A stretch of DNA of 52,644 bases, taken from NCBI GenBank assembly GCA_964435455.1, contig CAYSYH010000001.1, positions 1 through 52,644 on the forward strand, read 5' to 3'. Source of the DNA: an uncultured Candidatus Saccharibacteria bacterium (GTDB lineage: Bacteria > Patescibacteriota > WWE3 > 2-01-FULL-39-13 > JAACPI01). Both the position numbers and the translations under genes were made by a program. This document shows, in pieces, positions 5,531-52,644 of the stretch; within the stretch, counting starts at the first letter, position 1; every line of letters begins with the position of its first letter. Under the pieces are notes generated by a model. The model worked only from the letters and a program-made list of their open reading frames with translations. It ran no database searches and was not told the origin of the DNA.

Positions 5531-6625
5531 ATGGAAATTAATCAGCCTAAAGAAAAAACAGTTGATTCAAATAAAGGTAACCATAAAAAAGCACCAGTTG
5601 CTATTTCTAAATTATCTTCTTACGCTACATTGTTAATTGGTTTTGGGATTATTTTAGGCTCTTTGGTGTTTTCTTATTTTACAACCTATGCTTTTTATAA
5701 AAAACATCAAAAAAACCTCGAACTTATTAAGGTAGAAAATTTAAAGATGCAACGTTTAAATAAAAAAATATCCCAATTGCAAAAAGCAAAAAGCTTGGCA
5801 GGTAGTATACAAGAGAATAATTCATTAACTTTAGAGGCTGTTCCTGCTGAAGATGATATACCTATTGTAATGTCTATGATTCAAAAAATGGCAAAAAACA
5901 GTGCAGTTAAAATTTCTACCCTAAGTTATGCTGGTTTAGAATATAGTGATTATGCCAAATCTTTAGATAAAACTGCAAATTCTAAAAATATGGCTAATTC
6001 TAATACAAAATCCACTACCAAATCTAAAAGTAAAAAAAGCACTTTAGAAGATGACGAGCAATATGACTCCTTTAAGGTAAATGTAATTGTATCAGGAAGA
6101 TTTGAAGATGCTTTAAAATTTATTAAGTCTTTAGAGAATTCTCGCAGGCTAATTGATGTATTAAGCTTTAATTATAATCTTAAAAAAGATAACAATCTCA
6201 AAAAAGCTAAGACTAATAGGGATATTTTAAGTGTAAAGGTATTAGCACGCTCTTATTACAAAGATTTTTCTAAAACAAATTCACAAGATATAGAGTTAGA
6301 TAAATATTTACCTATTATAAGTAAATTAGAAAATATGGAATATATAGATATAGATACTAGCAATGTTGTTATAGGTAAAAACAATCCCTTTTTACAAGGT
6401 TCTGATAATAATACCTCAAACTCTAAAACTGACTCTTCTAAATCTGGCGAATCAAATTTTTTTGAAATAAATAGCTTAGAGACAGGTGTAGAAACAAAAG
6501 ATTTAGGAGTTACTAATGGGGGTTCTAGTTCTAATTCTTCTCAAAATGAACAAGATGTAGAGGCTGAAAAGGGAGATACTACGCAAGTACTTTTAGACTT
6601 GTTAAAACAAGAAGGACTACAATAA
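5531..6625 (+). CDS. PilO-like pilus assembly protein with long Ser/Asn/Lys-rich extensions
   Basis: GGAG 7 nt upstream of the ATG. One TM helix followed by a coiled coil (LKMQRLNKKISQLQKAK). Third position of a pilMNO block. At 364 aa it is much longer than a typical PilO. Confidence 0.5.
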   Translation: MEINQPKEKTVDSNKGNHKKAPVAISKLSSYATLLIGFGIILGSLVFSYFTTYAFYKKHQKNLELIKVENLKMQRLNKKISQLQKAKSLAGSIQENNSLTLEAVPAEDDIPIVMSMIQKMAKNSAVKISTLSYAGLEYSDYAKSLDKTANSKNMANSNTKSTTKSKSKKSTLEDDEQYDSFKVNVIVSGRFEDALKFIKSLENSRRLIDVLSFNYNLKKDNNLKKAKTNRDILSVKVLARSYYKDFSKTNSQDIELDKYLPIISKLENMEYIDIDTSNVVIGKNNPFLQGSDNNTSNSKTDSSKSGESNFFEINSLETGVETKDLGVTNGGSSSNSSQNEQDVEAEKGDTTQVLLDLLKQEGLQ

Positions 6626-6631
6626 ATACTT

Positions 6632-7345
6632 TTAATTAATCTTTTTTTTGTGTCTATTTCTCCATTCTTTAATTTTTTTATGGTTTCCGGATAATAATAT
6701 TTTAGGGACTTTTTTACCTTTATAATTATATGGTTTTGTATATAAAGGATATTCTAAATATCCTTCATCTGTAAAAGATTCCTCTTTAATAGATTCAATA
6801 TTGCCTAGTACTCCTTGAATAAGTCTAGATACGCTTTCTATAATTACCATAGCAGGTATTTCCCCTCCCATTGTAATATAAGGGCCTATTGTTATAACTT
6901 TATCCATTTCTTTTAACGTTCTTGTATCAAAACCTTCGTACCTACCACAAATTAAGGTTATATTTTTTCTACTAGTTAATTCTTTAGCTGTTTTTTGTGT
7001 GTATTGTTCTCCTTTTGGAGATAGTGCTATTTTATAGCTGTTTGTGACTTTCCTAATTGCCCTATTTATAACATCTGGCCTTAAAAGCATTCCTGCTCCT
7101 CCACCATATATTGTATCATCTATTTTTTTATGCTTTCCTATTCCATATTCTCTTAAATTTATTATATTTATTTTAAGGATTTTCTTTTCCATTGCTTTTT
7201 TTATTAAAGATTCTTTAATAAAGCAATCAAATAAGTTGGGAAACGCTGTAACTATATTAAAAGTTATATTTTTTTTAGATCTTAAAGATATTTTTTGTTT
7301 ATTCCTCTTTTTGGGTATTTTCTTTATCTTTTCTACTTTCTTCAT
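6632..7345 (-). CDS. trmD: tRNA (guanine37-N1)-methyltransferase TrmD with Lys-rich N-terminal extension
   Basis: FNIVTAFPNLF, GGGAGMLLRPDV and LICGRYEGFDTR motifs. The only canonical start is the ATG at 7345. Confidence 0.9.
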   Translation of the reverse strand: MKKVEKIKKIPKKRNKQKISLRSKKNITFNIVTAFPNLFDCFIKESLIKKAMEKKILKINIINLREYGIGKHKKIDDTIYGGGAGMLLRPDVINRAIRKVTNSYKIALSPKGEQYTQKTAKELTSRKNITLICGRYEGFDTRTLKEMDKVITIGPYITMGGEIPAMVIIESVSRLIQGVLGNIESIKEESFTDEGYLEYPLYTKPYNYKGKKVPKILLSGNHKKIKEWRNRHKKKIN

Positions 7346-7580
7346 CTACATAAATATTTATTTTTACTCCGTCTTTAACTGCTTTTACAGTTAATATATT
7401 TTTAATATTTTTAATTCTTTGTCCACCTTTTCCTATAATAATTCCGTAATCTTCCTTATTAGCTTTTACATATAAGTTTACTACTGTATTATCTTCTTCT
7501 TGGGTTACTTCTAAATCTTCTGGGTGATTAACTAAAAGCTTTAAAATATATTCTAAAGGTTCTTTGTAATTGTATTGCAT
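7299..7580 (-). CDS. KH-domain RNA-binding protein (YlqC/UPF0109 type)
   Basis: IIGKGGQRIKNIK GXXG loop. Conserved position between rpsP and trmD. Confidence 0.8.
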   Translation of the reverse strand: MQYNYKEPLEYILKLLVNHPEDLEVTQEEDNTVVNLYVKANKEDYGIIIGKGGQRIKNIKNILTVKAVKDGVKINIYVDEESRKDKENTQKEE

Positions 7581-7602
7581 TTTTTTATATTAACTTACTA
7601 CT

Positions 7603-7977
7603 TTATTTTTTTGGTTCTTCTTCATTTTTAGGTTGTTCTTCTTTATTATTTTCTTTAGATTGTTCATTATTTTCTTTTTCCCCCTCTTCTTTAGATTGGT
7701 TTTCTTGCTCTTCGTTTTTATCTTTAGGTTCATATTTTTTAAATTCATATTTTCCTGCAATTAAGTCCTTTACTGCTTGTGTTGGTTGTGCTCCTTTTGA
7801 TACCCAATATTTGTACTTTTTTTCATCATATTTAAATAAAACCGGGTTATATGAAGGATTATAAAAACCTATTGCTTCTATATGCTTTCCATCTCTTGGT
7901 TTAGATGATTCAGCTACTACTATTCTATAAGAGGGTGCATTTTTTCTTCCTTTTTTTAGTAATCTTATTTTTAACAT
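7603..7977 (-). CDS. rpsP: 30S ribosomal protein S16 with Lys/Glu-rich C-terminal tail
   Basis: MLKIRLLKKGRKNAPSYRIVVAES..RDGKHIEAIGFYNP is a canonical S16 N-terminus. Confidence 0.95.
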   Translation of the reverse strand: MLKIRLLKKGRKNAPSYRIVVAESSKPRDGKHIEAIGFYNPSYNPVLFKYDEKKYKYWVSKGAQPTQAVKDLIAGKYEFKKYEPKDKNEEQENQSKEEGEKENNEQSKENNKEEQPKNEEEPKK

Positions 7978-8027
7978 ATCAATTTTAATAATAATTTAAA
8001 AGCGGTTTAAAGTATACCGTTATAGAG

Positions 8028-8738
8028 CTATGTTTTCAATGCTTTATTTTGTTTTAAATAAACTTTTAATGCATTTTCTGCCGCATTTATTTCTGCCTTT
8101 TGTTTTGAGCTACCTTTGCCTTTGGCTACTTGTTTTTTACCTATAAATACGGCTACTTCAAATTGTTTATTGTGATCTGGTCCCCACTCACGTAATACTT
8201 TATAGTTTGGGGTTATACCCTCTCTTTCTTGCACCGTTTCTTGAAACATAGATTTTTTATCTTTATATGATTTTTCTTTAATTATTTTATCTATCTTGTA
8301 TAAAAGATTTTGATTTAAAAATTCTTTTGTTTTTTTTAAGCCTTGATCCAAGTACAATGCGCCTAGTACAGCTTCAAAAGTATTTGCTAAAATATAAGTA
8401 TTATCCCTACCCTTGTTTAGCTCTTCTCCTTTAGATAGTCTTAAAAATTCACCAAAACCTAATCTTTTAGATTCTTCTGCTAAAGATTGAGTATTTACTA
8501 ATGCTGATCTATAAGCTGTTAAAACCCCCTCTTTAAGGTATTTAAACTTATTGTATAAAAATTCTGTAGATATAAACTGTAAAACAGCATCTCCTAAAAA
8601 TTCTAATCTTTCATTAGATTCAATATTTTTTTGATCTGATTCGTTTAAGTATGACCTATGTGTAAATGCTGTTATAAAGAGGTTTATGTTATTTATTCTT
8701 TTTATATTTAAAGAATTTTTGAGCTTTTTTTTATCCAT
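8028..8738 (-). CDS. rnc: Ribonuclease III
   Basis: ERLEFLGDAVL catalytic signature and a C-terminal dsRBD (GPDHNKQFEV...GSSKQKAEINAAENAL). Confidence 0.9.
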   Translation of the reverse strand: MDKKKLKNSLNIKRINNINLFITAFTHRSYLNESDQKNIESNERLEFLGDAVLQFISTEFLYNKFKYLKEGVLTAYRSALVNTQSLAEESKRLGFGEFLRLSKGEELNKGRDNTYILANTFEAVLGALYLDQGLKKTKEFLNQNLLYKIDKIIKEKSYKDKKSMFQETVQEREGITPNYKVLREWGPDHNKQFEVAVFIGKKQVAKGKGSSKQKAEINAAENALKVYLKQNKALKT

Positions 8739-9156
8739 TTTGTTTAATTATTTTTTCTTTAATAAGGTTCGCTAGTACTCCATTTACAAACTTGCCCGAT
8801 TTTTCGGTGCTAAATTCTTTTGCTAGTTCTACAGCTTCGTCAACACATACTTTATATGGAGCTTTTTTTAAAAGAATAGATTCTAATATTGCTAAATTTA
8901 TTATAATTACATCTATTTCTAATAATTGATCTTTAGGCCAAGTATTAAGGTATCTTTTAGACAATTTTTCTAGCTTATCTTTATGTTTTATATAGTTTGT
9001 GCTTAATAAATTAAATATATCTTTATCATATTTATCTATTTTTAAAATTTTTTTTAGTTCTTTTTTTTCTTGAGGTTTTTTGCTAATTAAATAGCCATAT
9101 AAGTATGCTAACGCTAATCTTCTGGCTTGATGCCTAGGATCGGTAATTTTTTTCAT
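8731..9156 (-). CDS. nusB: Transcription antitermination factor NusB
   Basis: ARRLALAYLY start, ~140 aa helical protein with FVNGVL near the C-terminus. Overlaps rnc by 8 nt. Confidence 0.8.
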   Translation of the reverse strand: MKKITDPRHQARRLALAYLYGYLISKKPQEKKELKKILKIDKYDKDIFNLLSTNYIKHKDKLEKLSKRYLNTWPKDQLLEIDVIIINLAILESILLKKAPYKVCVDEAVELAKEFSTEKSGKFVNGVLANLIKEKIIKQNG

Positions 9157-17383: not shown

Positions 17384-19345
17384 TTATTTATTAGGTCTAT
17401 CTACAGGTTTTTTTAATACTGATTCTATATAGTTAATTACACTATTTCTTATCTCTGTCATTTCATTGGCTGTTAAGTTTCTTTTTGGGTTTTGGTAATA
17501 AATTGTTATTGTTAAAGCTCTATTTTTACCTTTGTTATAATCATCTTTTATTTCCACTTTAGTTATATATTTATTTGCTCTACTAATTTTATTTATAATA
17601 TCTCCAGCTAAGTCATCTAAATTTATATGTATTGTTAAATCTTCTTTAATTATTGCATATGGAGGGTTAAACCTTATAGTAGGATAGCTTTTGTATGCTT
17701 TAACTAAGTGCTTGTACCTAATTTGGGCATATGTGTATTTAGGCTTAACTGTTATAAATCCACATTTTTTATTATTAATGTATATATTTATTTGTCTTTT
17801 GTTAGGGTATTTAAAGGTGTAGTTGTCTATATTTAATACTTTAAATAAGTTTTTAAGTATATCTTTAATTTTATATATTCCTTCATTTCCCGAACTAAGT
17901 AATGCGAGGTATTCCTTTTCGGTAGGAAGCTTTTTGTTGTTCTTTAAATATATTTTTCCTACTTCATAAATATTTATTTCTTTATATTTTTTATTTAACT
18001 CTAGCGTTTGGTTTAAACTTGGTTCCAAACTTGTGCGTATATAAGACATCTCTTTACCTAAAGGATTAATTATTTTAACTGCCTTTTTTAAGTCAACATA
18101 TTTTTTTGGTACCATTGTATAAGTTATAACTTCATTAAAACCAGCATTACTTAGGTACATTTTTGTAAGCCTTTCTACTGTAGGTTTTTTGCTAAACTGT
18201 TCTTTTTTATAAAAATTAGGAGGTAATTTTAAATCAATTTTTTCGTACCCATAAATTCTAATTACCTCTTCTATTAAGTCTTCTTCTATAGATACATCTT
18301 GTTCTCTAAAACTAGGAACTTTTACCGTTATAAAATTTTTACCTTGTTTTATAATCTCAAATTGTAAAGCTTTTAATATGTTTTTAACTATTTGCTTTTC
18401 TATTTTCTGATTGGCATATAAGTAAAGTTTTTGGTAGGTTAACGTTACTAAACTGTTTTTAGGTTTTATAGTATTTATATCATACAGCTTGCTAGCTATT
18501 TTAAAATTAGTTTGTTGTTTCAATAATTTTAAAGATCTTAGTAATGCTTTTGGTGGTAACTCTCTGTCTATGGATTTTTCAAACCTTAAAGCAGCTTCTG
18601 TCCTATGATTTAATTTTAAGCTTGTTTTTCTTATTTTTTTAGGATCATATATTTGCGTAAATAAAACTACTCTTTTGGTGTCCGGTTTTATCTGTGAATT
18701 AGCTCCTCCCATAATTCCACATAAATCTATAATTTTTTCACTATCTTCTATAACTATAGAACCTTTGGGTAATACTCTTTTTGCTCCATCTAATGTAATA
18801 ATACTTTCTCCTTCTTTAGATTCTCTTACTTTCATTACAGAACCTTTTATACTATCGTAGTCAAACGCATGCATAGGTTGTCCTGTTTCTATCATTATGT
18901 AATTTGTTAAATCCACTATATTATTTATAGGCCTTATTCCTACTTGCTTTAACCTTTGTTTAATAATTTGGGGAGATTCTTTAATAGTTATGTTTTCTAT
19001 TACACATGCTGTGAAACGTGGTGACAGTTTAGGATTCTCAATTTGTACCTTTAATAAATCTTTATTTGCAAAGTTTTCTGTATATACATCTTTTAATGGG
19101 TTATTAAAAATTACCTTTTGCTTTTCAGCCTTTAAAATAGCTGTTAATTCTCTTGCTATTCCTAAAATAGACAAATTGTCTCCCCTATTTGGTGTTATCT
19201 CTATATCTAACACAAAATCACCCTCTATATTTTTTATATACTCTACGCTGGAACTTCGCAATGTAAGTAAGTTGGCAATATCGCTGATATTTTTATTTGT
19301 TTTTACTATTTCTTTTAACCAATTTTGAGGTACTAGTATATTCAT
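17384..19345 (-). CDS. pheT: Phenylalanyl-tRNA synthetase beta subunit
   Basis: MNILVPQNWLKE start, B3/4 and B5 regions, a C-terminal anticodon-binding-like domain. Directly downstream of pheS. Confidence 0.9.
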   Translation of the reverse strand: MNILVPQNWLKEIVKTNKNISDIANLLTLRSSSVEYIKNIEGDFVLDIEITPNRGDNLSILGIARELTAILKAEKQKVIFNNPLKDVYTENFANKDLLKVQIENPKLSPRFTACVIENITIKESPQIIKQRLKQVGIRPINNIVDLTNYIMIETGQPMHAFDYDSIKGSVMKVRESKEGESIITLDGAKRVLPKGSIVIEDSEKIIDLCGIMGGANSQIKPDTKRVVLFTQIYDPKKIRKTSLKLNHRTEAALRFEKSIDRELPPKALLRSLKLLKQQTNFKIASKLYDINTIKPKNSLVTLTYQKLYLYANQKIEKQIVKNILKALQFEIIKQGKNFITVKVPSFREQDVSIEEDLIEEVIRIYGYEKIDLKLPPNFYKKEQFSKKPTVERLTKMYLSNAGFNEVITYTMVPKKYVDLKKAVKIINPLGKEMSYIRTSLEPSLNQTLELNKKYKEINIYEVGKIYLKNNKKLPTEKEYLALLSSGNEGIYKIKDILKNLFKVLNIDNYTFKYPNKRQINIYINNKKCGFITVKPKYTYAQIRYKHLVKAYKSYPTIRFNPPYAIIKEDLTIHINLDDLAGDIINKISRANKYITKVEIKDDYNKGKNRALTITIYYQNPKRNLTANEMTEIRNSVINYIESVLKKPVDRPNK

Positions 19346-45540: not shown

Positions 45541-46050
45541 ATGCCCAATTTAAAACCTTTTGATTATTTTTTACAAAAAATAAAACTTTTAGGTATACCT
45601 AAAAACAGTTTTACTATTTTTGGGAGCTTTCCTATGTATCCTTTGGGACTTAAATATTTTTTTAGAGATATGGATATTGTGGTTAGGCTTAAATATTGGT
45701 ATAAGCTAGCTAAATTAAATAATCCAACTTTTAAAAAAAAGGTAATTTCTAATACAGGTTTAAGCTTTTTTGAAGGTAAAATAGAGGTTTTTTATGTTTG
45801 GAAGCCCGGAGGATTAGAAGATAAAACTTTATGGGATACCGAAACATTAATAAATACTTCATTTAAATTTAAAGGTTATAATTTTGTTAGTTTAGAAAAA
45901 GTATTACTCTATAAAAAACTATTAAAAAGAGAAAAGGACAAAGCCGATATAAAAGTAATACAAGATTATTTAAATAATTTAGTGTCAAATAATATTTATT
46001 ACGAAACCATGTCTGTATCTTTACCGCTCATTGCAGGAGATAATTTTTAA
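45541..46050 (+). CDS. Polymerase-beta-superfamily nucleotidyltransferase-fold protein (paralog of 43840-44298)
   Basis: FGSFPM-x13-DMDIV, IEVF and FVSLEKVLLYKKLLKREKD are colinear with the other copy. Confidence 0.55.
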   Translation: MPNLKPFDYFLQKIKLLGIPKNSFTIFGSFPMYPLGLKYFFRDMDIVVRLKYWYKLAKLNNPTFKKKVISNTGLSFFEGKIEVFYVWKPGGLEDKTLWDTETLINTSFKFKGYNFVSLEKVLLYKKLLKREKDKADIKVIQDYLNNLVSNNIYYETMSVSLPLIAGDNF

Positions 46051-46100
46051 CTAGAAACTATTTTAAAATTTGTTAAACTTAATATATATAGTATATATAC

Positions 46101-46175
46101 GCGGGTATCGTATAATGGCTATTATATCGCCCTTCCAAGGCGAAGATGCGGGTTCAATTCCCGCTACCCGCTCCA
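46101..46175 (+). tRNA. tRNA-Gly (anticodon UCC), encoded CCA
   Basis: Anticodon arm TCGCC CTTCCAA GGCGA, T arm GCGGG TTCAATT CCCGC, acceptor GCGGGTA/TACCCGC. Confidence 0.9.
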
Positions 46176-46194
46176 TTTTATAACTCCTATTAAA

Positions 46195-46270
46195 GCGCCC
46201 GTGGCTCAACGGCTAGAGCACCTGGCTTCGGACCAGGGGGTTGTGGGTTCGAATCCTACCGGGCGCGCCA
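46195..46270 (+). tRNA. tRNA-Arg (anticodon UCG), encoded CCA
   Basis: GCGCCCG TG GCTC AACGGCTA GAGC A CCTGG CTTCGGA CCAGG GGGTT GTGGG TTCGAAT CCTAC CGGGCGC G CCA. Confidence 0.9.
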
Positions 46271-46285
46271 TGGTTATGGCTGTTA

Positions 46286-46411
46286 TTATAAATATCTAAT
46301 TAATGTTTGGAGTAAAGCTATAATACCTGCAATAAAAATTAAACCCGCACTTACAAGCATTAACCCATAAATTAAACCTACTTTTTTTAAAATATCTTTA
46401 AAATAATCCAT
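46286..46411 (-). CDS. Possible 41-aa single-TM micro-protein, translationally coupled (TAATG) to the upstream gene
   Basis: My translation gives MDYFKDILKKVGLIYGLMLVSAGLIFIAGIIALLQTLIRYL. Its ATG shares one base with the stop of 46411-47187. Confidence 0.4.
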   Translation of the reverse strand: MDYFKDILKKVGLIYGLMLVSAGLIFIAGIIALLQTLIRYL

Positions 46412-47187
46412 TACTCGGGAGTTTGCATATTTTGTATTTCTTTAAGGTAATAGTTTACGCACCTTGCCCAAGAACCGCCATTTTTAACACTTGGAGGAGC
46501 ATATTTAGGCATTATCTTTTCTGGGGTATCTAAGCCTTGATCAATATAATATTTTTTTAGTCCTTTTGTTACTGTTTCTATTGCAGTTTCCCATGATCCA
46601 AGTCTATATTTGCCTGTTTTATTAGCTAAATCATATTCGCTTGCAGCCCACCCCCATGTATTATACGAATCTTTTGGTATTTTTTTACCTCCATTACCTT
46701 CACAATAACCTATTGCCGATACTAATCGCCAATCTATGCCATATTTATCTGCTGTTTGTACAATAAAATCGGCATATTCTTGCAAAGGGGCTCCATATTT
46801 AGAAAAAAACAACCTTACCTTTTCTGCTCTTGCATCGGTAGTTTTTGCTTCTACAGAATAGGTAGAAATATTTTTAGGATTTGCCACATAAACATTATAT
46901 GTTGGTTTTACTTGCTTTTTATTAAAATGATTGTAATTAAGGTAAACATAAGATGTTATACCCATTAACGATACAATAAAGAATAATATTGGTATTATTA
47001 CCAAATAACTAGTTTTAAAAACAAATTTATATTTAAAAAGTAATACTTTATTTACAATTTTTTGTGTTGTTAAACCTACTTCATGTTTCCAACTTTTTTT
47101 TATGTTCATGTATATAGGGGTTTCAGTTAATGAGTTTATAAAGTTTTTGGAGTTTAGCAATGAATTTATTGCTTTTTTATGTTTCAT
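46411..47187 (-). CDS. Membrane-anchored putative peptidoglycan hydrolase (lysozyme-like fold)
   Basis: One TM helix, then YGIDWRLVSAIGYCEGNGG ... NTWGWAA. This resembles lytic transglycosylase/lysozyme-like catalytic regions, but the identification is weak. Confidence 0.4.
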   Translation of the reverse strand: MKHKKAINSLLNSKNFINSLTETPIYMNIKKSWKHEVGLTTQKIVNKVLLFKYKFVFKTSYLVIIPILFFIVSLMGITSYVYLNYNHFNKKQVKPTYNVYVANPKNISTYSVEAKTTDARAEKVRLFFSKYGAPLQEYADFIVQTADKYGIDWRLVSAIGYCEGNGGKKIPKDSYNTWGWAASEYDLANKTGKYRLGSWETAIETVTKGLKKYYIDQGLDTPEKIMPKYAPPSVKNGGSWARCVNYYLKEIQNMQTPE

Positions 47188-47305
47188 AAGTGTATAACAC
47201 TTTATTAATTATACTAAAATTTATGTAAGTTTCAAGAAAGGGTATTTTTAAAGTAGTAGCTTAAAAAACAACTCTTGGAAAAAACCAAAAATCCTATTAA
47301 TATAA

Positions 47306-48077
47306 AGTAATGTAAAAAATTTATCTAAGGTTAAAAATGTTAATCCCTTTTATTTGTTAAGAGTTGGAGATTTACACCCTGCACATACCACTAAATATAA
47401 AGATGTTAAAAATAATAAATTGATATATAAAGACCCTACTTTATGGGAAGATTTAATTATAAAAATATTAATAAGTTTAAATTATTCTTTAAATTACTTT
47501 CCTTTTAAAATTAAGTATAGTAAGTCTTTTAAAGTTAGGGATTATTTACAAGCTAATCAAGAAACAAAAAACAAAAAACCTACCTATTTTAAACGGGAAA
47601 ATTATAAAACCAATAGAATATAAAAAATATTTAATAGCTGGGTTTAAAAAAGGCTCAAAGCATATTTTAAAGCACAAATTAGATTTATTACATATAGTAA
47701 CAAATTATAAAAGTCAGTACAGAGTTATATTAAGACCTACAATTATGTATAGAATTCCTTTTATTAAATATCAATTTCCACAAATATTTAATAAAAATAA
47801 AAATCCACAAAAATTTGTTTATAAAGAGTTAAAAAACTTTAAATTACAGCACAAGCTATCAAATACTAAAGGGTTGATTCAAAATGAATCTAAGTTTGTA
47901 AGCAAAGGAATAATACCTACATATTATGCCAATTTACATACAACAAACATATATACAAGCAATGGAGATATAGTTGCTAATTTAGCCCAAAAGCCCTTAA
48001 AAACCTTTACTAGCCATATTAAAACATTACCTACATTACTAAATAATTCTTTAAAAACATTACAAAGCTACAAGTAA
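47306..48077 (+). pseudogene. Degenerate, frame-shifted ORF pair without ATG start; possible remnant of a recombinase-like gene
   Basis: One frame is open over 47306-47623. A second frame is open over 47493-48077 and overlaps it across poly-A runs (47561-47580). Only a TTG start is available. LLRVGDL and HILKH resemble tyrosine-recombinase box I and II only weakly. Confidence 0.25.
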
Positions 48078-48130
48078 CCTTTTTAAATTTTATATAAACT
48101 AATTACATAGGGGTAATACTAGTATTTATT

Positions 48131-48205
48131 TGGAGCGGGTAAGGGGAGTTGAACCCCTATTTCCGCCATGGCAAGGCGGTGTAATAGCCGTTATACGATA
48201 CCCGC
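48131..48205 (-). tRNA. tRNA-Gly (anticodon GCC), encoded CCA
   Basis: Anticodon arm CCGCC TTGCCAT GGCGG, T arm AGGGG TTCAACT CCCCT, and the same acceptor stem as the UCC isoacceptor. Confidence 0.9.
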
Positions 48206-48281
48206 AAAAGTCTATAAAAGATTTTATTATAGTTTTGTTTAAAAATAAAGTATATTTTGGTAAAATAATCATTGCTAAAGG

Positions 48282-48357
48282 GCGCCCGTAGCTCAGAGGC
48301 TAGAGCAGTTCCCTTCTAAGGAAAAGGTCGTAGGTTCGAATCCTACCGGGCGCGCCA
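48282..48357 (+). tRNA. tRNA-Arg (anticodon UCU), encoded CCA
   Basis: GCGCCCG TA GCTC AGAGGCTA GAGC A GTTCC CTTCTAA GGAAA AGGTC GTAGG TTCGAAT CCTAC CGGGCGC G CCA. Confidence 0.9.
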
Positions 48358-48376
48358 TTAAAATATTTTATTTTAT

Positions 48377-48453
48377 CGGGGTTTGGCGCAGTTGGCTAGC
48401 GCGCTGCGTTTGGGACGCAGAGGTCACAGGTTCAAGTCCTGTAACCCCGACCA
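48377..48453 (+). tRNA. tRNA-Pro (anticodon UGG), encoded CCA
   Basis: CGGGGTT TG GCGC AGTTGGCTA GCGC G CTGCG TTTGGGA CGCAG AGGTC ACAGG TTCAAGT CCTGT AACCCCG A CCA. Confidence 0.9.
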
Positions 48454-48468
48454 TTTGAATAATCTTTT

Positions 48469-49470
48469 TTAATTTACCTTTTTGCTATACCAAATATCTA
48501 ACCCCAAACTTTTGTCGTCTCTTTTAAATAATTGTGCAAATACCATTTCTGTACCATCTGCGGTTATAGATACTTCTGCCACACCTACTGGGTGTGTTAT
48601 AAACTTAACGGGTTTGCTCCATTTTGTACCTTGTTCATTTTGCCTTGTAGTTTTGTAAATTGCCAAAGTCCCCCCACTGCGGTCTGAGGTAAAGTACAAG
48701 GTGTTGCAATCATCGGTAAGAAAGGGCTGAAAATCCGACACAGAATTTTTATTTTTAGCATTTATAGGGTACGGGGCTAGTTCTACCTTGCCCTTAAAAT
48801 TACTTGCTGTTGCGTTTTTCATAACGCATATATTTTGATCATTTGGGCAATCAAACCATGCTTCGTCTCTTTGCTCGCACAGGTGAATGTTTCCCTCGTC
48901 TTTTCCGGTGCCAAAATCAAGCCGTACATTGTTTTTGTACACAGTAACAGGTACATCTTTTTGTTGTACAAAAGATTCTTTTGTAGAGTTATAGTAAAGA
49001 TCCCCTGCAAGGGATATATACGGTGCAGTTTGTGTAGTAGGGTATTTTTTATTTTTAGATATAGGGTGTACACTTTTAGTTTTAAATGGTTTATTGCTGT
49101 AATAAATCTTTCCATCAATACCTTTTTTTATAGCCTCTTGGGGTTTGTATACAACGTAGTTTGTTATTTGCTCTGTAATTTTTGGGTCTAGTAAATTAGG
49201 GTAAGGGTGATAAAAAAATAAAATTTTACTCCCATCTCGGGTAATATAGGGCGAATCCTCCCACCCTGCGTCATTAAACTCAAGCTTAACAGGGGTTTGC
49301 CAGCCTTTTTGGTGTATAGTAGCTGGTATTAGTTTAGTATCATCATCTTTGTATTTAGGTATATCTGCAGGCTTTTGCGGCTCATCAGAACTTAAAACCG
49401 CAATAACTAAAAAAATAACTAAGCCAATTAAAAAAAACTTAAAACTAAAAAATCTTTTAACAAAAACCAT
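48469..49470 (-). CDS. Membrane-anchored PD40 (TolB-like) beta-propeller repeat protein
   Basis: N-terminal TM (FFSFKFFLIGLVIFLVIAVL). Repeats of the PD40 type are present (PYITRDGSKILFFY, PYISLAGDLYYNS, PFLTDDCNTLYFTSDRSGGTLAIY, VSITADGTEMVFA). The ATG at 49470 is preferred over the TTG at 49539. Confidence 0.65.
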   Translation of the reverse strand: MVFVKRFFSFKFFLIGLVIFLVIAVLSSDEPQKPADIPKYKDDDTKLIPATIHQKGWQTPVKLEFNDAGWEDSPYITRDGSKILFFYHPYPNLLDPKITEQITNYVVYKPQEAIKKGIDGKIYYSNKPFKTKSVHPISKNKKYPTTQTAPYISLAGDLYYNSTKESFVQQKDVPVTVYKNNVRLDFGTGKDEGNIHLCEQRDEAWFDCPNDQNICVMKNATASNFKGKVELAPYPINAKNKNSVSDFQPFLTDDCNTLYFTSDRSGGTLAIYKTTRQNEQGTKWSKPVKFITHPVGVAEVSITADGTEMVFAQLFKRDDKSLGLDIWYSKKVN

Positions 49471-49522
49471 TAATTTTTTATAAACCTTATTTAACTTATT
49501 ATAACAAGGTTTTAGTAATATA

Positions 49523-52500
49523 TTAATTTGCAATAACAAAACTATCTGCCAAAAGCTCCCCCTGCTTTAAAACTCGGTCGGCCTCTATCCGCGCCAAGTC
49601 CGGCGGGTAACCATATTTCATCAGAAGTTTTTTGACCGTCACGCGCAACTTGGCACGCACATCAGAGCGCCTTTCCCAGTCCACCGTTGCGTTTCTGCGG
49701 ATTGTCTCCACGATAAGATGAATCAACTCTCGCATCACCTCATCTTGCAAAAAAGTGGTTGATTGATTTTCTTTTAAAATAGTATAAAAAGCATATTCCT
49801 CCTCCGTCAGCCCTAATTCTTTAGCTTTGCCATCTTCCAGCTTCATCTCGCGAGCAATGTTTGACAGTTCCTCAATCACCTGCGCCGTGGTGATTTGGTT
49901 GTTGTGATACTTGCGCACAACTTCCTCCAGCATTTCCGAAAACTTTTTTGACTGTGTCAGATTTTTTCGTTTACGCACTTTCAATTCATCAGAGAGCAAC
50001 TTTCTCAAAAGTTCAAAAGCCAAGTTTTTTTGCTCCATATTTTTCACTTCCAGCAAAAACTCCTCTGACAAAATATCCAAAGAAGGATTATCTACGCCCG
50101 CGGCCTGAAAAATATCAATCACCCCGTCGGCAGACAATGCTTCATCCACAATTTGCCTCACCGCTGTTTGCACCTGCGCATCAGTTCTCATTCCGCCGGT
50201 ACCAAACTTGGCAATCCGCGCTTTAACAGCTTGGAAAAATGCCATTTTTTCACGGATCATCTCCGCTTCAGCGCTTGGAGTTGCCATAGCAAAAAGTTTA
50301 GAGAGCTTGCCTACTTCCGAGACAAAACGCTTTTTCACATCTTCATCGCGCAAAACAAAATCCTCCGCATCCAGCAAAATCTGCAACTTCTCTTTGGTGT
50401 CCACTTGAAAATATTTTTCATAATCAAAGCTGGCAAACATCTGCTCCACCACCTCAAACTTCTCTCGCATGCCGGCAATCACTTCCGCCATATCATTCAC
50501 CGCCTCCCCTTTGCCGCCACTTTCGGTATAAACCGCCATAGCGTTTTTCAAATCCTGCCCAATGCCGATGTAGTCAACAATCAATCCGCCCGGCTTGTCG
50601 CGATACACTCTGTTGACCCGCGCAATCGCCTGCATCAAATTTGCCCCTTGCATCCTCTTGTCAATATACATTGTATGCAGTGGTGGCACGTCAAAACCGG
50701 TCAACCACATGGACTGCACAATCACCAAATCCAACTCATCATTGATATCCTTAAAGCGCGCCGCCAGTTTGGAGCGGTCGCTCTTGTTGGTGTGGTGCGG
50801 TTGAAATTTTGCCGGGTCATCACTACTGCTTGTCATAACCACCTTGATTTTCCCTTTCATCAAGTCATCACTATGCCAAGCTGGACGCAAAGCAACAATC
50901 TGCTGATACAAATCAACCGCAATTTCTCGCGTCATCGCCACAATCATTCCTTTACCGGCAAAAACTTCTTGCCTTGCTTCAAAATGACTGACAATATCCT
51001 GCGCCATTTCTCGCAAACGCTCCGGTGCGCCCACCACTGCCGAAATTTGTGCCACTTTTTTCTTGGCTTTTTCTAATTGCTCCGGCAAGGCATTGGAAAT
51101 TGCAGAAATTTCCTCATCTATTTTCTCTCCTGTCTGCTCATCAAATTTTACTTTGATTAAACGCGCTTCATAGGAAATCGGCACCGTTGCTCCGTCATCC
51201 ACCGCCTGCTTGATATCATAGACATCAATATATTCTCCAAAAACTTTTTTGGTGTTGCGGTCGCCCAACTCAACCGGTGTTCCGGTAAAGCCGATGAAAG
51301 AAGCGTTGGGCAAGGCATCGCGCAAATGCTTGGCGTTGCCGTAGCGAGTTTCCACGCCATCTGCCGTCTCCACCTCTCGCGCCCTAAAACCATACTGACT
51401 GCGGTGCGCCTCATCGGCAATTACCACCACATTTTTCCTCTCGGTCAAAGCATCAAACTGCCCGCCATCTTCCGGATAAAATTTTTGAATGGTGGTAAAA
51501 ATAATGCCTCCACCTGAAACGCGTAGTAATTCTTTCAGCTCTGCCCGACTTTTGGCTTGTTTTGGCTTCTCTCGCAACAGCGAAGTACAGTTTCCAAAAG
51601 TGGCAAAGAGTTGGTCGTCCAAATCATTTCTATCGGTCAAAATCACCAAAGTGGGATTTTTCATTTTTGGATGTACCATCAACTGCCCGGCATAAAAAAC
51701 CATAGACAATGATTTTCCGCTCCCCTGCGTATGCCAAATCACACCCACCTTGTGGTCGCTTTCAATAGCGCGCAAAGTTTCTTTTACTGATTTTTCCACC
51801 GCGTAAAACTGATGATAAGCCGCCACCTTTTTAACAATCACCTGCTTAATAATTCCCGTCTTGTCATCTTTTACCTCCTCACGCTCAAAGACCGTATTAA
51901 AACGAATCAAACGCAAAAGTACATCTTTTTTCATCATCTCCTCCGCCATCACCTGCAACTCCGGCTCTCGTCCTTTTTGCCTTTCCTTTGGTCTTTTCCA
52001 TGCTAAAAATCGCGAAAACGGCGCCGACAAAGACGACACTCGCGCCTCCGCTCCGTCTCCAATCACACATAAGGCGTTGTAGTAAAAAATGCTCGGCACC
52101 GCCTCTTTGTAATTTTGAATTTGAGTGTAAGCTTTTTCCAAAGTGGCATTTTCATCTTCTGGATTTTTCAACTCCACCAAAACCAATGGCAAGCCATTGA
52201 CAAACAGCACCACATCGGGGATTTTATGATTGTTATTTTCTTTTATCTCAAACTGATTTACCACCCAGAAAGAATTGTTTTCTACATTTTCCAAATCAAT
52301 CAATTTCACCAATTCATTTTTTGTCTCTCCGTCTGCAAAATACTCAACCGTGATGCCGTCGGTCAGCATTTTGTGGAATTTTTCATTGTTTGCCATCACG
52401 TCGCTTCCGCCCAAATTCAAAATCTTTACCATCGCCTCAGCGCGTGCCGACTCCGGCACATTGGGATTGATGCGACGCAAAGACTCGCGCAACTCTTTTT

Positions 52501-52642
52501 CCAACACCACCGATGAGAAATTCTCTCTCTGCCCGGCGTCCGTATAGGGCGCAATTTCCGAGCCGTGAAAATACCGATAGCCCTGCTTTTGCAGCATTTC
52601 TATCAAGTATTTTTCTATGTCTTGTTCGTAAAGTTTTGTCAT
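49523..52642 (-). CDS. hsdR: Type I restriction enzyme R subunit (HsdR), complete
   Basis: PD-(D/E)xK nuclease (IPDVVLFVNGLPLVLVELK). SF2 motifs TQGSGKS, VIADEAHRSQ, FTGTP and QAIARVNR, plus a long helical C-terminal domain. 1039 aa. Confidence 0.9.
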   Translation of the reverse strand: MTKLYEQDIEKYLIEMLQKQGYRYFHGSEIAPYTDAGQRENFSSVVLEKELRESLRRINPNVPESARAEAMVKILNLGGSDVMANNEKFHKMLTDGITVEYFADGETKNELVKLIDLENVENNSFWVVNQFEIKENNNHKIPDVVLFVNGLPLVLVELKNPEDENATLEKAYTQIQNYKEAVPSIFYYNALCVIGDGAEARVSSLSAPFSRFLAWKRPKERQKGREPELQVMAEEMMKKDVLLRLIRFNTVFEREEVKDDKTGIIKQVIVKKVAAYHQFYAVEKSVKETLRAIESDHKVGVIWHTQGSGKSLSMVFYAGQLMVHPKMKNPTLVILTDRNDLDDQLFATFGNCTSLLREKPKQAKSRAELKELLRVSGGGIIFTTIQKFYPEDGGQFDALTERKNVVVIADEAHRSQYGFRAREVETADGVETRYGNAKHLRDALPNASFIGFTGTPVELGDRNTKKVFGEYIDVYDIKQAVDDGATVPISYEARLIKVKFDEQTGEKIDEEISAISNALPEQLEKAKKKVAQISAVVGAPERLREMAQDIVSHFEARQEVFAGKGMIVAMTREIAVDLYQQIVALRPAWHSDDLMKGKIKVVMTSSSDDPAKFQPHHTNKSDRSKLAARFKDINDELDLVIVQSMWLTGFDVPPLHTMYIDKRMQGANLMQAIARVNRVYRDKPGGLIVDYIGIGQDLKNAMAVYTESGGKGEAVNDMAEVIAGMREKFEVVEQMFASFDYEKYFQVDTKEKLQILLDAEDFVLRDEDVKKRFVSEVGKLSKLFAMATPSAEAEMIREKMAFFQAVKARIAKFGTGGMRTDAQVQTAVRQIVDEALSADGVIDIFQAAGVDNPSLDILSEEFLLEVKNMEQKNLAFELLRKLLSDELKVRKRKNLTQSKKFSEMLEEVVRKYHNNQITTAQVIEELSNIAREMKLEDGKAKELGLTEEEYAFYTILKENQSTTFLQDEVMRELIHLIVETIRRNATVDWERRSDVRAKLRVTVKKLLMKYGYPPDLARIEADRVLKQGELLADSFVIAN

Positions 52643-52644
52643 GG

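What the first reader, a model, noticed from the sequence alone, without database searches (positions are those of the whole stretch)
48454..52644. Sharp compositional break at the 3' end of tRNA-Pro: a G+C-rich hsdR and a PD40 protein
Seen in the sequence:
- Everything left of 48453 is strongly AT-rich (15 of 60 G+C in the line at 17401).
- The PD40 gene is intermediate (26 of 60 at 48541).
- hsdR is far richer (33 of 60 at 49561, 35 of 60 at 51301).
- Long spurious opposite-strand ORFs occur only in this segment.
- The break begins 15 nt after tRNA-Pro, and the hsdR stop sits exactly at an AT-rich/GC-rich junction near 49523.

Established knowledge: tRNA 3' ends are classic integration sites for genomic islands, and type I R-M genes are frequently transferred.

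Inference: this is either a very recent horizontal acquisition of a defence island by an AT-rich reduced genome, or a chimeric assembly join. No integrase or att repeat is visible in the window. hsdM and hsdS would lie beyond the right edge.
Basis: partly seen in the sequence, partly recalled or inferred. Interest (0 to 1): 0.6.

Follow-up and report, generated by a model that had tools for sequence, protein, structure and literature searches.

The report
Foreign restriction gene at contig end
The last 3 kb of this contig from a tiny AT-rich (CPR-like) bacterial genome is an intact type I restriction enzyme gene (hsdR) of clearly foreign composition, most likely a recent horizontal acquisition beside a resident gene. 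This kind of event is already described in these bacteria, and it is not a tRNA-targeted island.

Summary
The compositional anomaly is real, but its sharp edge is at the hsdR stop codon (49523), not at tRNA-Pro.

- **hsdR is foreign.** hsdR (49523-52642, minus strand) has 45.4% GC and GC3 0.51. The genome has 28.8% GC and GC3 0.187±0.033. hsdR is rank 1 of 441 ORFs and rank 1 of 388 windows by dinucleotide signature (z 7.9).
- **hsdR is intact.** It has all HsdR motifs and groups with Patescibacteria HsdR proteins (best 78% identity).
- **PD40 looks resident.** The PD40 gene (48469-49470) is only a mild GC3 outlier and has an ordinary dinucleotide signature. A 62%-identical homolog lies in a contig colinear with this genome's contig C7.
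- **The hsdR/PD40 junction is corroborated.** An independent 1370-bp metagenome contig reproduces it at 99.6% identity.
- **The PD40/tRNA-Pro junction is not corroborated.** That contig and a third assembly's protein diverge from the window at about 48477, so this junction rests on this contig alone.
- **Island hallmarks are missing.** There is no att repeat. No integrase, hsdM or hsdS is linked to the segment in the window or the bin. The contig ends 2 nt before the hsdR start codon.

Best reading: recent acquisition of a type I R-M cassette upstream of PD40 (confidence 0.55). A mis-joined contig end remains possible (0.25). Type I R-M islands in Patescibacteria are already published, so interest is low.

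The parts
48377..48453 (+). tRNA-Pro(TGG). It is the only copy of this anticodon in the genome, so it is part of the backbone.
   Evidence: ARAGORN. The whole-genome tRNA set is non-redundant, with 43 different anticodons (only CAT occurs twice). Rfam tRNA match at 67.9 bits.
48454..48479 (.). Breakpoint zone between the backbone and the PD40-hsdR segment. Two other assemblies of the same PD40 gene diverge from the window here, giving C-terminus ...WYSKRGEE* instead of ...WYSKKVN*.
   Evidence: L010 matches the window from 49828 down to 48477 at 99.6% identity, then differs at 15 of its last 18 bases. The ENA protein P0300 has the same KRGEE end. No approximate copy of the L010 tail exists in the bin. 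The 9-mer TGAATAATC just after the tRNA is shared with the same-family genome G001 (weak).
48469..49470 (-). PD40 (WD40-like beta-propeller) protein of 333 aa with an N-terminal hydrophobic anchor or signal. It is probably a resident gene of this lineage and is a mild GC3 outlier.
   Evidence: Pfam PD40, 28.6 bits. GC3 0.296. Dinucleotide signature ordinary. It clusters with P0124 (support 85-89), whose contig L014 is colinear with G000 C7.
49471..49522 (-). AT-rich spacer (13% GC) carrying a promoter-like site for PD40. The -35 hexamer TTAATA overlaps the hsdR stop, followed by a 17-nt spacer and an extended -10 TGnTATAAT.
   Evidence: Promoter scan, 10 of 12 matches with TG before the -10 hexamer. 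Composition.
49523..52642 (-). hsdR, the type I restriction enzyme R subunit. It is intact at 1039 aa, has foreign composition (45.4% GC, GC3 0.51), and is the terminal gene of a presumed hsdM-hsdS-hsdR operon.
   Evidence: Pfam HSDR_N, SWI2_SNF2/ResIII, T1R_D3-like and T1RH-like_C. TIGR00348 611 bits against a cut-off of 284.6. PADLOC REase_I 1183 bits. Motifs D143..E157-x-K159, GSGKS 307, DEAH 410, TGTP 453, QAIARVNR 671. Composition.
52643..52644 (.). Contig end, 2 nt upstream of the hsdR ATG. The window is the whole contig C1, and no other contig of the bin overlaps this end.
   Evidence: One search shows the window is G000:C1:1-52644. The k-mer overlap test from 21 to 127 nt was negative.

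Best explanation
hsdR is the last gene of a type I restriction-modification cassette. The cassette was acquired horizontally and recently by this AT-rich, reduced (CPR/Patescibacteria-like) population. The likely donor is a mid-G+C (about 42-48%) lineage, probably another Patescibacteria bacterium.

The cassette landed immediately upstream of a resident PD40 beta-propeller gene, and its edge lies at the hsdR stop codon. PD40 keeps its own AT-rich promoter. The rest of the cassette (hsdS, hsdM and possibly embedded genes) lies beyond the contig end. It was not assembled or not binned, plausibly because its composition differs or because that part varies between strains.

Once complete, the system would work as any type I enzyme does. 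An M2S1 complex methylates a bipartite target, and HsdR translocates and cuts unmethylated incoming DNA.

tRNA-Pro is not the integration site. The PD40/tRNA-Pro junction is a separate breakpoint that varies between strains.

**Shown:** the foreign composition, the intact HsdR, the hsdR-PD40 adjacency in a second assembly, and the Patescibacteria affinity of the protein.

**Inferred:** the presence of hsdM and hsdS, the donor, the recency, and physical linkage to the backbone.
For: 1. **Extreme and abrupt composition.**
   - GC3 is 0.51 against 0.187±0.033, rank 1 of 441.
   - The dinucleotide distance is rank 1 of 388, z 7.9.
   - The top five 1-kb GC windows of the genome lie here, above the rRNA-bearing contig end at 41.7%.
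   - GC3 stays at 0.40-0.68 along the gene until about the last 8 codons.
2. **An unusual excess for this gene family.** In 44 homologous loci hsdR GC tracks its flanks, mostly within +0.03 to +0.08 and at most +0.12. Here it is +0.17.
3. **An intact, full-length HsdR**.
4. **Phylogeny.** It is sister to P0001 (78% identity, support 100). It sits in a well-supported clade with a Moraniibacteriota sequence whose gene has GC3 0.57 and whose flanks have 45% GC. Named close hits are mostly Patescibacteria.
5. **An independent junction.** JGI contig L010 reproduces the hsdR-spacer-PD40 junction at 99.6% identity, with 5 mismatches over the 1352 aligned bases, so a second haplotype has it.
6. **PD40 looks resident.**
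   - Its dinucleotide signature is ordinary.
   - L014 is colinear with G000 C7:19441-22539 at 73% nucleotide identity, with Xer at 85% aa against 53-58% in GTDB relatives.
   - L014 carries the PD40 homolog two genes after DUF192.
   - C7 ends just after DUF192 and a gene with the second-highest GC3 in the genome.
7. **Operon structure.** Homologous operons place hsdM and hsdS upstream of hsdR on the same strand, with different genes directly before hsdR.
8. **Published precedent.** Type I R-M islands and mostly intra-phylum HGT are reported in Patescibacteria (PMC12455944).
Against:
- **The link to the backbone rests on one contig.** L010 and the ENA protein P0300 both diverge from it at about 48477.
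- **The anomaly sits at a contig end.** HGT screens treat such end matches as unreliable (MetaCHIP 'end match' filter, described in PMC12455944).
- **No hsdS or hsdM-type methylase in a 94.9%-complete bin**.
- **PD40 is itself a GC3 outlier** (rank 4 of 441), so it may not be strictly native.
- **No empty-site relative.** None of the 40 searched relatives has either gene, so there is no clean empty-site comparison.
- **The closest HsdR homologs (75-78%) are AT-rich** (GC3 0.21), so no actual donor is identified.
Confidence: 0.55

Rival explanations
1. Mis-joined contig end. The segment from about 48477 to 52644 (PD40 and hsdR) comes from a different but related strain or species in the same community and was attached to the tRNA-Pro end of C1 by the assembler. 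hsdR would still be a foreign gene next to PD40, but in another genome than the one binned.
For: - Two other assemblies of the same PD40 gene (JGI L010 and ENA P0300) continue differently from about 48477.
- Only the window's contig has the KKVN-type end.
- The segment is at the contig end and nothing in the bin overlaps it.
- PD40 GC3 is rank 4 of 441.
- No hsdM or hsdS is in the bin.
- The KR..E-type C-terminus of L010 and P0300 resembles that of the nearest homolog P0124 (KREL), so the window's end looks derived.
Against: - The two versions share no repeat at the breakpoint. They diverge immediately after ...GCAAAA. A de Bruijn mis-join normally needs a shared k-mer, so junction-spanning reads probably exist (inference).
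- The PD40 dinucleotide signature fits this genome.
- A contig colinear with this genome's C7 carries a PD40 homolog.
- Bin contamination is 0.43%.
Confidence: 0.25
2. PD40 and hsdR (plus hsdS, hsdM and a recombinase beyond the edge) form one mobile block inserted next to the tRNA cluster. L010 and P0300 show the same block in its donor or in another insertion context.
For:
- PD40 GC3 is elevated.
- The neighbourhood holds a gene relic, a LanM-type DUF4135 fragment at 47493-48077, which suggests a zone of turnover.
- Homologous R-M loci in other Patescibacteria lie next to serine recombinases.
Against: - There is no direct repeat of the tRNA 3' end and no att-like repeat.
- The boundary is about 24 nt beyond the tRNA, not in it.
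- No integrase lies in the window. The bin has no serine recombinase and only two Xer-type tyrosine recombinases, both in housekeeping-like contexts.
- PD40 and hsdR differ strongly from each other in composition and are separated by a 13%-GC spacer, so they do not share one history.
- A PD40 homolog sits in a conserved non-tRNA context in the closest relative.
Confidence: 0.12
3. hsdR is an old resident gene whose high G+C reflects protein constraints or codon selection rather than transfer.
For: Conserved genes are somewhat G+C-richer than average in AT-rich genomes. In homologous loci hsdR is usually 3-8 points above its flanks.
Against: - GC3, which is nearly free of protein constraint, is 0.51 against 0.187.
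- Close homologs in AT-rich hosts have GC3 of 0.12-0.29.
- The GC-normalised dinucleotide signature is also the genome's strongest outlier.
- The gene was not found in the 40 relatives searched.
Confidence: 0.02

Closest known systems
[quoted passage not shown]
   Same: Both are horizontally acquired type I R-M genes in an ultra-small Patescibacteria-type genome. That paper reports that most transfers occur within the phylum, which matches the Patescibacteria affinity of this HsdR.
   Different: Only hsdR is visible here and the contig ends at its start. The G+C excess of +17 points is very large. The paper's screen discards transferred genes at contig ends, which is exactly this case.
HGT-acquired type I R-M genes of the CPR bacterium Vampirococcus lugosii (PMC8080830, as cited in PMC12455944)
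   Same: Type I R-M genes gained by HGT in a reduced CPR genome.
   Different: According to PMC12455944, the genes there are not syntenic. Here the operon context is unknown. I did not read that paper itself.
EcoR124I HsdR (type IC; PDB 2W00, 4BEC)
   Same: The domain plan is the same: an N-terminal PD-(D/E)xK nuclease, two RecA-like SF2 motor domains and a helical C-terminal domain. It is the best solved-structure match (E 1e-33 over residues 51-517).
   Different: The relationship is distant. The C-terminal domain here is of the HindI-like T1RH-like_C type (Pfam PF11867). The type I subfamily was not assigned.
Classical tRNA-integrated genomic islands (tyrosine integrase, with attL/attR repeating the tRNA 3' end)
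   Same: Foreign DNA lies near a tRNA gene and carries defence cargo.
   Different: There is no integrase, no repeat of the tRNA 3' end, and the boundary is not in the tRNA. The gene next to the tRNA (PD40) looks resident.
R-M cassettes that move and rearrange genomes without their own mobility genes (Kobayashi and co-workers: Nobusato et al. 2000; Furuta, Abe and Kobayashi 2010; cited from memory and from an earlier scan note, not read here)
   Same: The cassette edge lies exactly at a gene end, no recombinase is visible, and the neighbouring region differs between close relatives (NT5C upstream of PD40 in L014, hsdR here).
   Different: No target duplication or clean empty site could be demonstrated.

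Membership tests
HsdR, type I restriction enzyme R subunit (TIGR00348) | Whole-protein score above the curated family cut-off | tested here: met
   TIGR00348 611.1 bits against a cut-off of 284.55. PADLOC REase_I PDLC03040 1183 bits over residues 3-1033.
HsdR, type I restriction enzyme R subunit (TIGR00348) | N-terminal PD-(D/E)xK nuclease motif | tested here: met
   PDVVLFVNGLPLVLVELK at residues 142-159 (D143, E157, K159) lies within Pfam HSDR_N.
HsdR, type I restriction enzyme R subunit (TIGR00348) | SF2 helicase/translocase motifs (Walker A, DEAH, motifs III and VI) | tested here: met
   GSGKS 307-311, DEAH 410-413, TGTP 453-456, QAIARVNR 671-678. Pfam SWI2_SNF2 and ResIII.
HsdR, type I restriction enzyme R subunit (TIGR00348) | C-terminal helical domain that docks on the methylase complex | tested here: met
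   Pfam T1RH-like_C covers residues 708-1033 and profile positions 1-328 of 329, E 2.6e-116. The C-terminus aligns with homologs to the end.
Complete type I R-M system | hsdM and hsdS encoded with hsdR | tested here: inconclusive
   The contig ends 2 nt before the hsdR ATG. The 94.9%-complete bin has no Methylase_S hit and only a borderline N6_Mtase hit in a 293-aa ORF on C4. Homologous loci have both genes upstream on the same strand.
tRNA-integrated genomic island | Direct repeat of the tRNA 3' end (att) bounding the island | tested here: not met
   No such repeat lies in 46000-52644. The far end of any island is beyond the contig, so only the near side and the available sequence could be tested.
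tRNA-integrated genomic island | Integrase or recombinase gene next to the tRNA or within the island | tested here: not met
   None lies in 48454-52644. The suspected relic at 47306-48077 is a DUF4135 (LanM-type) fragment, not a recombinase. The bin has two Xer-type tyrosine recombinases elsewhere and no serine recombinase.
tRNA-integrated genomic island | Island boundary within or at the tRNA 3' end, with all island genes foreign | tested here: not met
   Divergence from other assemblies starts about 24 nt after the tRNA. PD40 has the host's dinucleotide signature and a homolog in a syntenic relative. The sharp boundary is at 49523.
Horizontally acquired gene (compositional criteria) | Codon-position and oligonucleotide composition outside the genome's range | tested here: met
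   For hsdR, GC3 z is about 9.8 (rank 1 of 441) and the dinucleotide distance z is 7.9 (rank 1 of 388). For PD40 this holds only for GC3 (rank 4 of 441), not for the dinucleotide distance.
Horizontally acquired gene (phylogenetic criteria) | Not found in close relatives, and nested among sequences of other lineages | tested here: met
   No close homolog in the 40 relatives searched; the weak matches in two of them are 28-51% identical. The nearest sequences are at 70-78% identity in other Patescibacteria and unnamed contigs.

The most novel reading that the evidence does not exclude
The PD40-hsdR block may be a unit that sits in different genomic contexts in co-occurring, nearly identical CPR strains. 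That would mean a type I R-M cassette actively moving or rearranging its surroundings in a 0.75-Mb genome without any recombinase of its own. Alternatively, hsdR may be kept as a solitary intact nuclease-translocase without hsdM or hsdS, for example for DNA scavenging, as has been proposed for CPR epibionts.
Probability: 0.08. Interest if true: 0.45.

Novelty: new member of a known kind. Interest (0 to 1): 0.2.

Why it matters
The biology is modest. It is one more case of a defence gene moving between Patescibacteria lineages of very different base composition, and it fits published reports that these reduced genomes rely on R-M systems gained by HGT.

The finding is more useful for genome quality. 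The last 4.2 kb of the largest contig of this MAG rests on a junction that two other assemblies do not share. That junction should be checked before the hsdR is counted in the species' gene content or in HGT statistics.

The case also shows that a compositional step seen next to a tRNA need not mean tRNA-targeted integration.

Tried and rejected
- **Contig overlaps.** I looked for another contig of the bin overlapping either end of C1, with k from 21 to 127. None was found.
- **hsdM, hsdS and recombinases in the bin.** There is no hsdS, no hsdM-type methylase and no serine recombinase. The two tyrosine recombinases are Xer-like. One lies in a FemAB-tRNA-Met-DivIC-Xer-DUF192 block.
- **Metagenome scan for the PD40 3' end.** It returned only the already known 1370-bp contig.
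- **Exact look-up of the window's hsdR.** It is not on record.
- **Near-identical N-terminal hsdR fragments** that could extend the contig. None was found, and the best hit was 66% identical.
- **Viral contigs and plasmids.** No relative turned up in viral contigs. Plasmid hits were only 63-67% identical at the DNA level.
- **Synteny around tRNA-Pro and Xer.** Gene order in the same-family genome G001 and the same-order genome G002 is too rearranged to define an empty site.
It is a DUF4135 fragment, not a recombinase.
- **The divergent L010 tail.** I asked whether it is an assembly artefact or the start of a tRNA. There is no match to any tRNA 5' end or any other sequence in the bin. The ENA protein P0300 shows the same KRGEE end, so the tail is real.

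Full report
**Setting**

The window is the whole of contig C1 (52,644 bp) of a 744.6-kb, 67-contig genome with 28.8% G+C. Completeness is 94.9% and contamination 0.43%.

Several features fit a CPR/Patescibacteria-type reduced genome:
- All 40 relatives searched have genomes of 0.5-1.0 Mb.
- Ribosomal proteins L30 and L9 were not found. From my own knowledge, the absence of L30 and L9 is typical of CPR genomes.
- The tRNA set is non-redundant, with a single tRNA-Pro(TGG).

**Check of the observation**

tRNA-Pro(TGG) is at 48377-48453. A 333-aa PD40-repeat protein is encoded at 48469-49470 on the minus strand, and a complete 1039-aa HsdR at 49523-52642 on the minus strand.

The G+C rise is real and very large for hsdR:
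- The five richest 1-kb windows of the whole genome all fall in 49501-52500, above even the rRNA-bearing contig end.
- hsdR has GC3 of 0.51 against a genome mean of 0.187 (SD 0.033). That is rank 1 of 441 ORFs of at least 200 aa, and the next gene has 0.327.
- Its G+C-normalised dinucleotide distance from the genome is rank 1 of 388 3-kb windows, z 7.9.

The change is abrupt. GC3 stays at 0.40-0.68 along the gene until about the last 8 codons. The 52-nt spacer that follows has 13% G+C.

The step at the tRNA-Pro 3' end is much weaker. PD40 has 35.8% G+C and GC3 of 0.296, rank 4 of 441. Its dinucleotide signature is ordinary (z 0.6, rank 297 of 1382). The step looks larger because the 940 nt to the left of the tRNA cluster have only 22% G+C. 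Shadow ORFs are longest opposite hsdR but also occur elsewhere.

**What the genes are**

hsdR meets every sequence criterion of the family:
- TIGR00348 scores 611 bits against a cut-off of 285.
- PADLOC REase_I matches over the full length.
- The Pfam domains are HSDR_N, SWI2_SNF2/ResIII, T1R_D3-like and T1RH-like_C.
- The nuclease D-ExK, Walker A, DEAH, motif III and motif VI are all intact.
- The nearest solved structure is EcoR124I HsdR.

PD40 has an N-terminal hydrophobic segment and a beta-propeller-type body. Its function is unknown. A promoter-like site (TTAATA, 17 nt, extended -10 TGnTATAAT) fills the spacer, and its -35 hexamer overlaps the hsdR stop. PD40 therefore appears to keep its own AT-rich control region.

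**Where hsdR comes from**

No close homolog was found in the 40 relatives searched; two of them gave only weak matches at 28-51% identity. In a 5.8-billion-protein search the best hit is 78% identical, and the named close hits are mostly Patescibacteria:
- Magasanikbacteria
- Gracilibacteria
- Absconditabacterales
- Paceibacteria
- Moraniibacteriota

Some Zetaproteobacteria, Thiotrichales, Thermotogaceae and others also appear.

In a tree, the window's protein is sister to P0001 (support 100). It lies in a well-supported six-member clade that includes a Moraniibacteriota sequence.

Across 44 homologous loci the G+C of hsdR follows that of its flanks, usually 3-8 points higher and at most 12. 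Here the excess is 17 points. The closest relatives by protein (75-78%) sit in AT-rich contigs with GC3 of 0.21. The Moraniibacteriota gene has GC3 of 0.57 in 45%-G+C flanks.

The window's gene therefore spent its recent past in a mid-G+C host and has not drifted toward its present AT-rich surroundings. Three homologous loci show hsdM...hsdS...hsdR on one strand, with unrelated genes inserted between them and directly upstream of hsdR. Two of these loci lie next to serine recombinases.

**Is the segment really part of this genome?**

Three indirect lines of evidence exist.

1. *An independent junction.* JGI metagenome contig L010 (1370 bp, sample 3300026534) matches the window from 49828 down to 48477 at 99.6%, with 5 mismatches, all lying in PD40. 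The hsdR/spacer/PD40 junction, which is the sharpest compositional break, therefore exists in a second assembly and a second haplotype.

2. *PD40 looks resident.* Its nearest homologs include P0124 (62% aa; moderate support of 85-89 for the clade).
   - P0124's contig L014 (30% G+C) is colinear with this genome's contig C7:19441-22539 at 73% nucleotide identity.
   - The amino-acid identities are FemAB 67%, DivIC 53%, Xer 85% and DUF192 51%.
   - The same Xer is only 53-58% identical in the GTDB relatives, so L014 comes from the closest known relative.
   - In L014, PD40 lies two genes after DUF192.
   - In this genome, C7 ends about 400 nt after DUF192 plus a Kazal-like Cys-rich gene. That gene has the second-highest GC3 in the genome.
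   - The C7 end and the C1 end may therefore be neighbours, with the R-M cassette in the variable slot between DUF192 and PD40. This is an inference, not a demonstration.

3. *The tRNA-Pro junction is uncorroborated.* L010 diverges from the window at about 48477. Fifteen of its last 18 bases differ, which changes the PD40 C-terminus from KKVN* to KRGEE*.
   - A third assembly (ENA, 2693-bp contig) encodes a PD40 identical to the window's except for the same KRGEE end. The alternative end is therefore real.
   - The window's PD40/tRNA-Pro junction is seen only in this contig.
   - The two versions share no repeat at the breakpoint. That argues against a simple graph mis-join and for a real structural difference between strains, but it does not prove it.
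   - The KR..E-type end resembles that of the nearest homolog (KREL), so the window's end looks derived.

**The tRNA-island idea**

- There is no direct repeat of the tRNA 3' end.
- There is no recombinase in 48454-52644.
- The boundary with other assemblies lies about 24 nt past the tRNA.
- A short match to the same-family genome G001 (TGAATAATC) suggests that the tRNA's native flank persists for about 14 nt (weak).
- Synteny with G001 and G002 is too scrambled to give an empty site.

**Conclusion**

The most likely account (0.55) is a recent horizontal acquisition of a type I R-M cassette, probably from another Patescibacteria lineage of about 42-48% G+C. It inserted immediately upstream of a resident PD40 gene, with hsdS and hsdM lying beyond the contig end.

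A mis-joined contig end is the main rival (0.25). Even then, hsdR is foreign to the AT-rich genome that carries PD40, because the hsdR/PD40 junction is reproduced independently. An island that includes PD40 and sits beside the tRNA cluster is less likely (0.12). An old native gene is effectively excluded (0.02).

Genomic islands with full type I R-M systems, and mainly intra-phylum HGT, have already been described in Patescibacteria (PMC12455944). That same paper discards transferred genes at contig ends as unreliable. This is therefore a new member of a known kind, with a quality caveat on the contig end.

Noticed in passing
window 47493-48077 (+), within the 22%-GC gap 47188-48130: A stop-free frame without an ATG matches the C-terminal third of Pfam DUF4135, the dehydratase domain of class II lanthipeptide synthetases (LanM). 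It covers profile positions 249-377 of 378, at E 4.5e-13 and 49.5 bits.
   Followed up: partly
G000 contig C57 (3408 bp; locus L078): A CRISPR-Cas adaptation module is present: Cas2-like (92 aa), Cas1-like (311 aa) and Cas4 (Pfam Cas_Cas4, E 1e-8). Next to it is the C-terminal 424 aa of a large protein with a weak RuvC_1 match and a CxxC...C zinc motif, cut by the contig end. This may be a type V (Cas12-like) effector. Its GC3 of 0.325 is the third-highest in the genome.
   Followed up: partly
G000 contig C7:22939-23544 (locus L077 4440-5045, minus strand): A 201-aa secreted or anchored Cys-rich protein has a weak Kazal-type inhibitor match (22.3 bits). It has 40% GC and the second-highest GC3 in the genome (0.327). 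It lies right after the conserved FemAB-tRNA-Met-DivIC-Xer-DUF192 block, about 400 nt from the contig end.
   Followed up: partly
L032 3309-3384 (G001:C11, same-family genome): ARAGORN calls a tRNA with anticodon CTA ('tRNA-Pyl'). It is 90% identical to the window's tRNA-Arg(TCT) and may be an amber-suppressor-like variant or a miscall.
   Followed up: no
L008, L012, L013 (homologous type I R-M loci): Extra genes are embedded between hsdM, hsdS and hsdR: Bro-N, Fic/RhuM, a 603-aa protein with no Pfam match, HNH, and a Lactamase_B-like protein. Large serine recombinases lie next to two of the operons.
   Followed up: no
L047 (Patescibacteria group bacterium auto_43_30, hsdR at 6001-9108): This is another patescibacterial hsdR of the same family that is much G+C-richer than its flanks (52.8% against 40.5%, GC3 0.675). 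It is a second candidate for recent transfer.
   Followed up: no
G000 contig C21 (10.9 kb, 24.8% GC) and the first 3 kb of C9: After hsdR, these are the strongest dinucleotide-signature outliers of the genome (distance 0.17-0.20 against a mean of 0.066). Their content was not examined.
   Followed up: no
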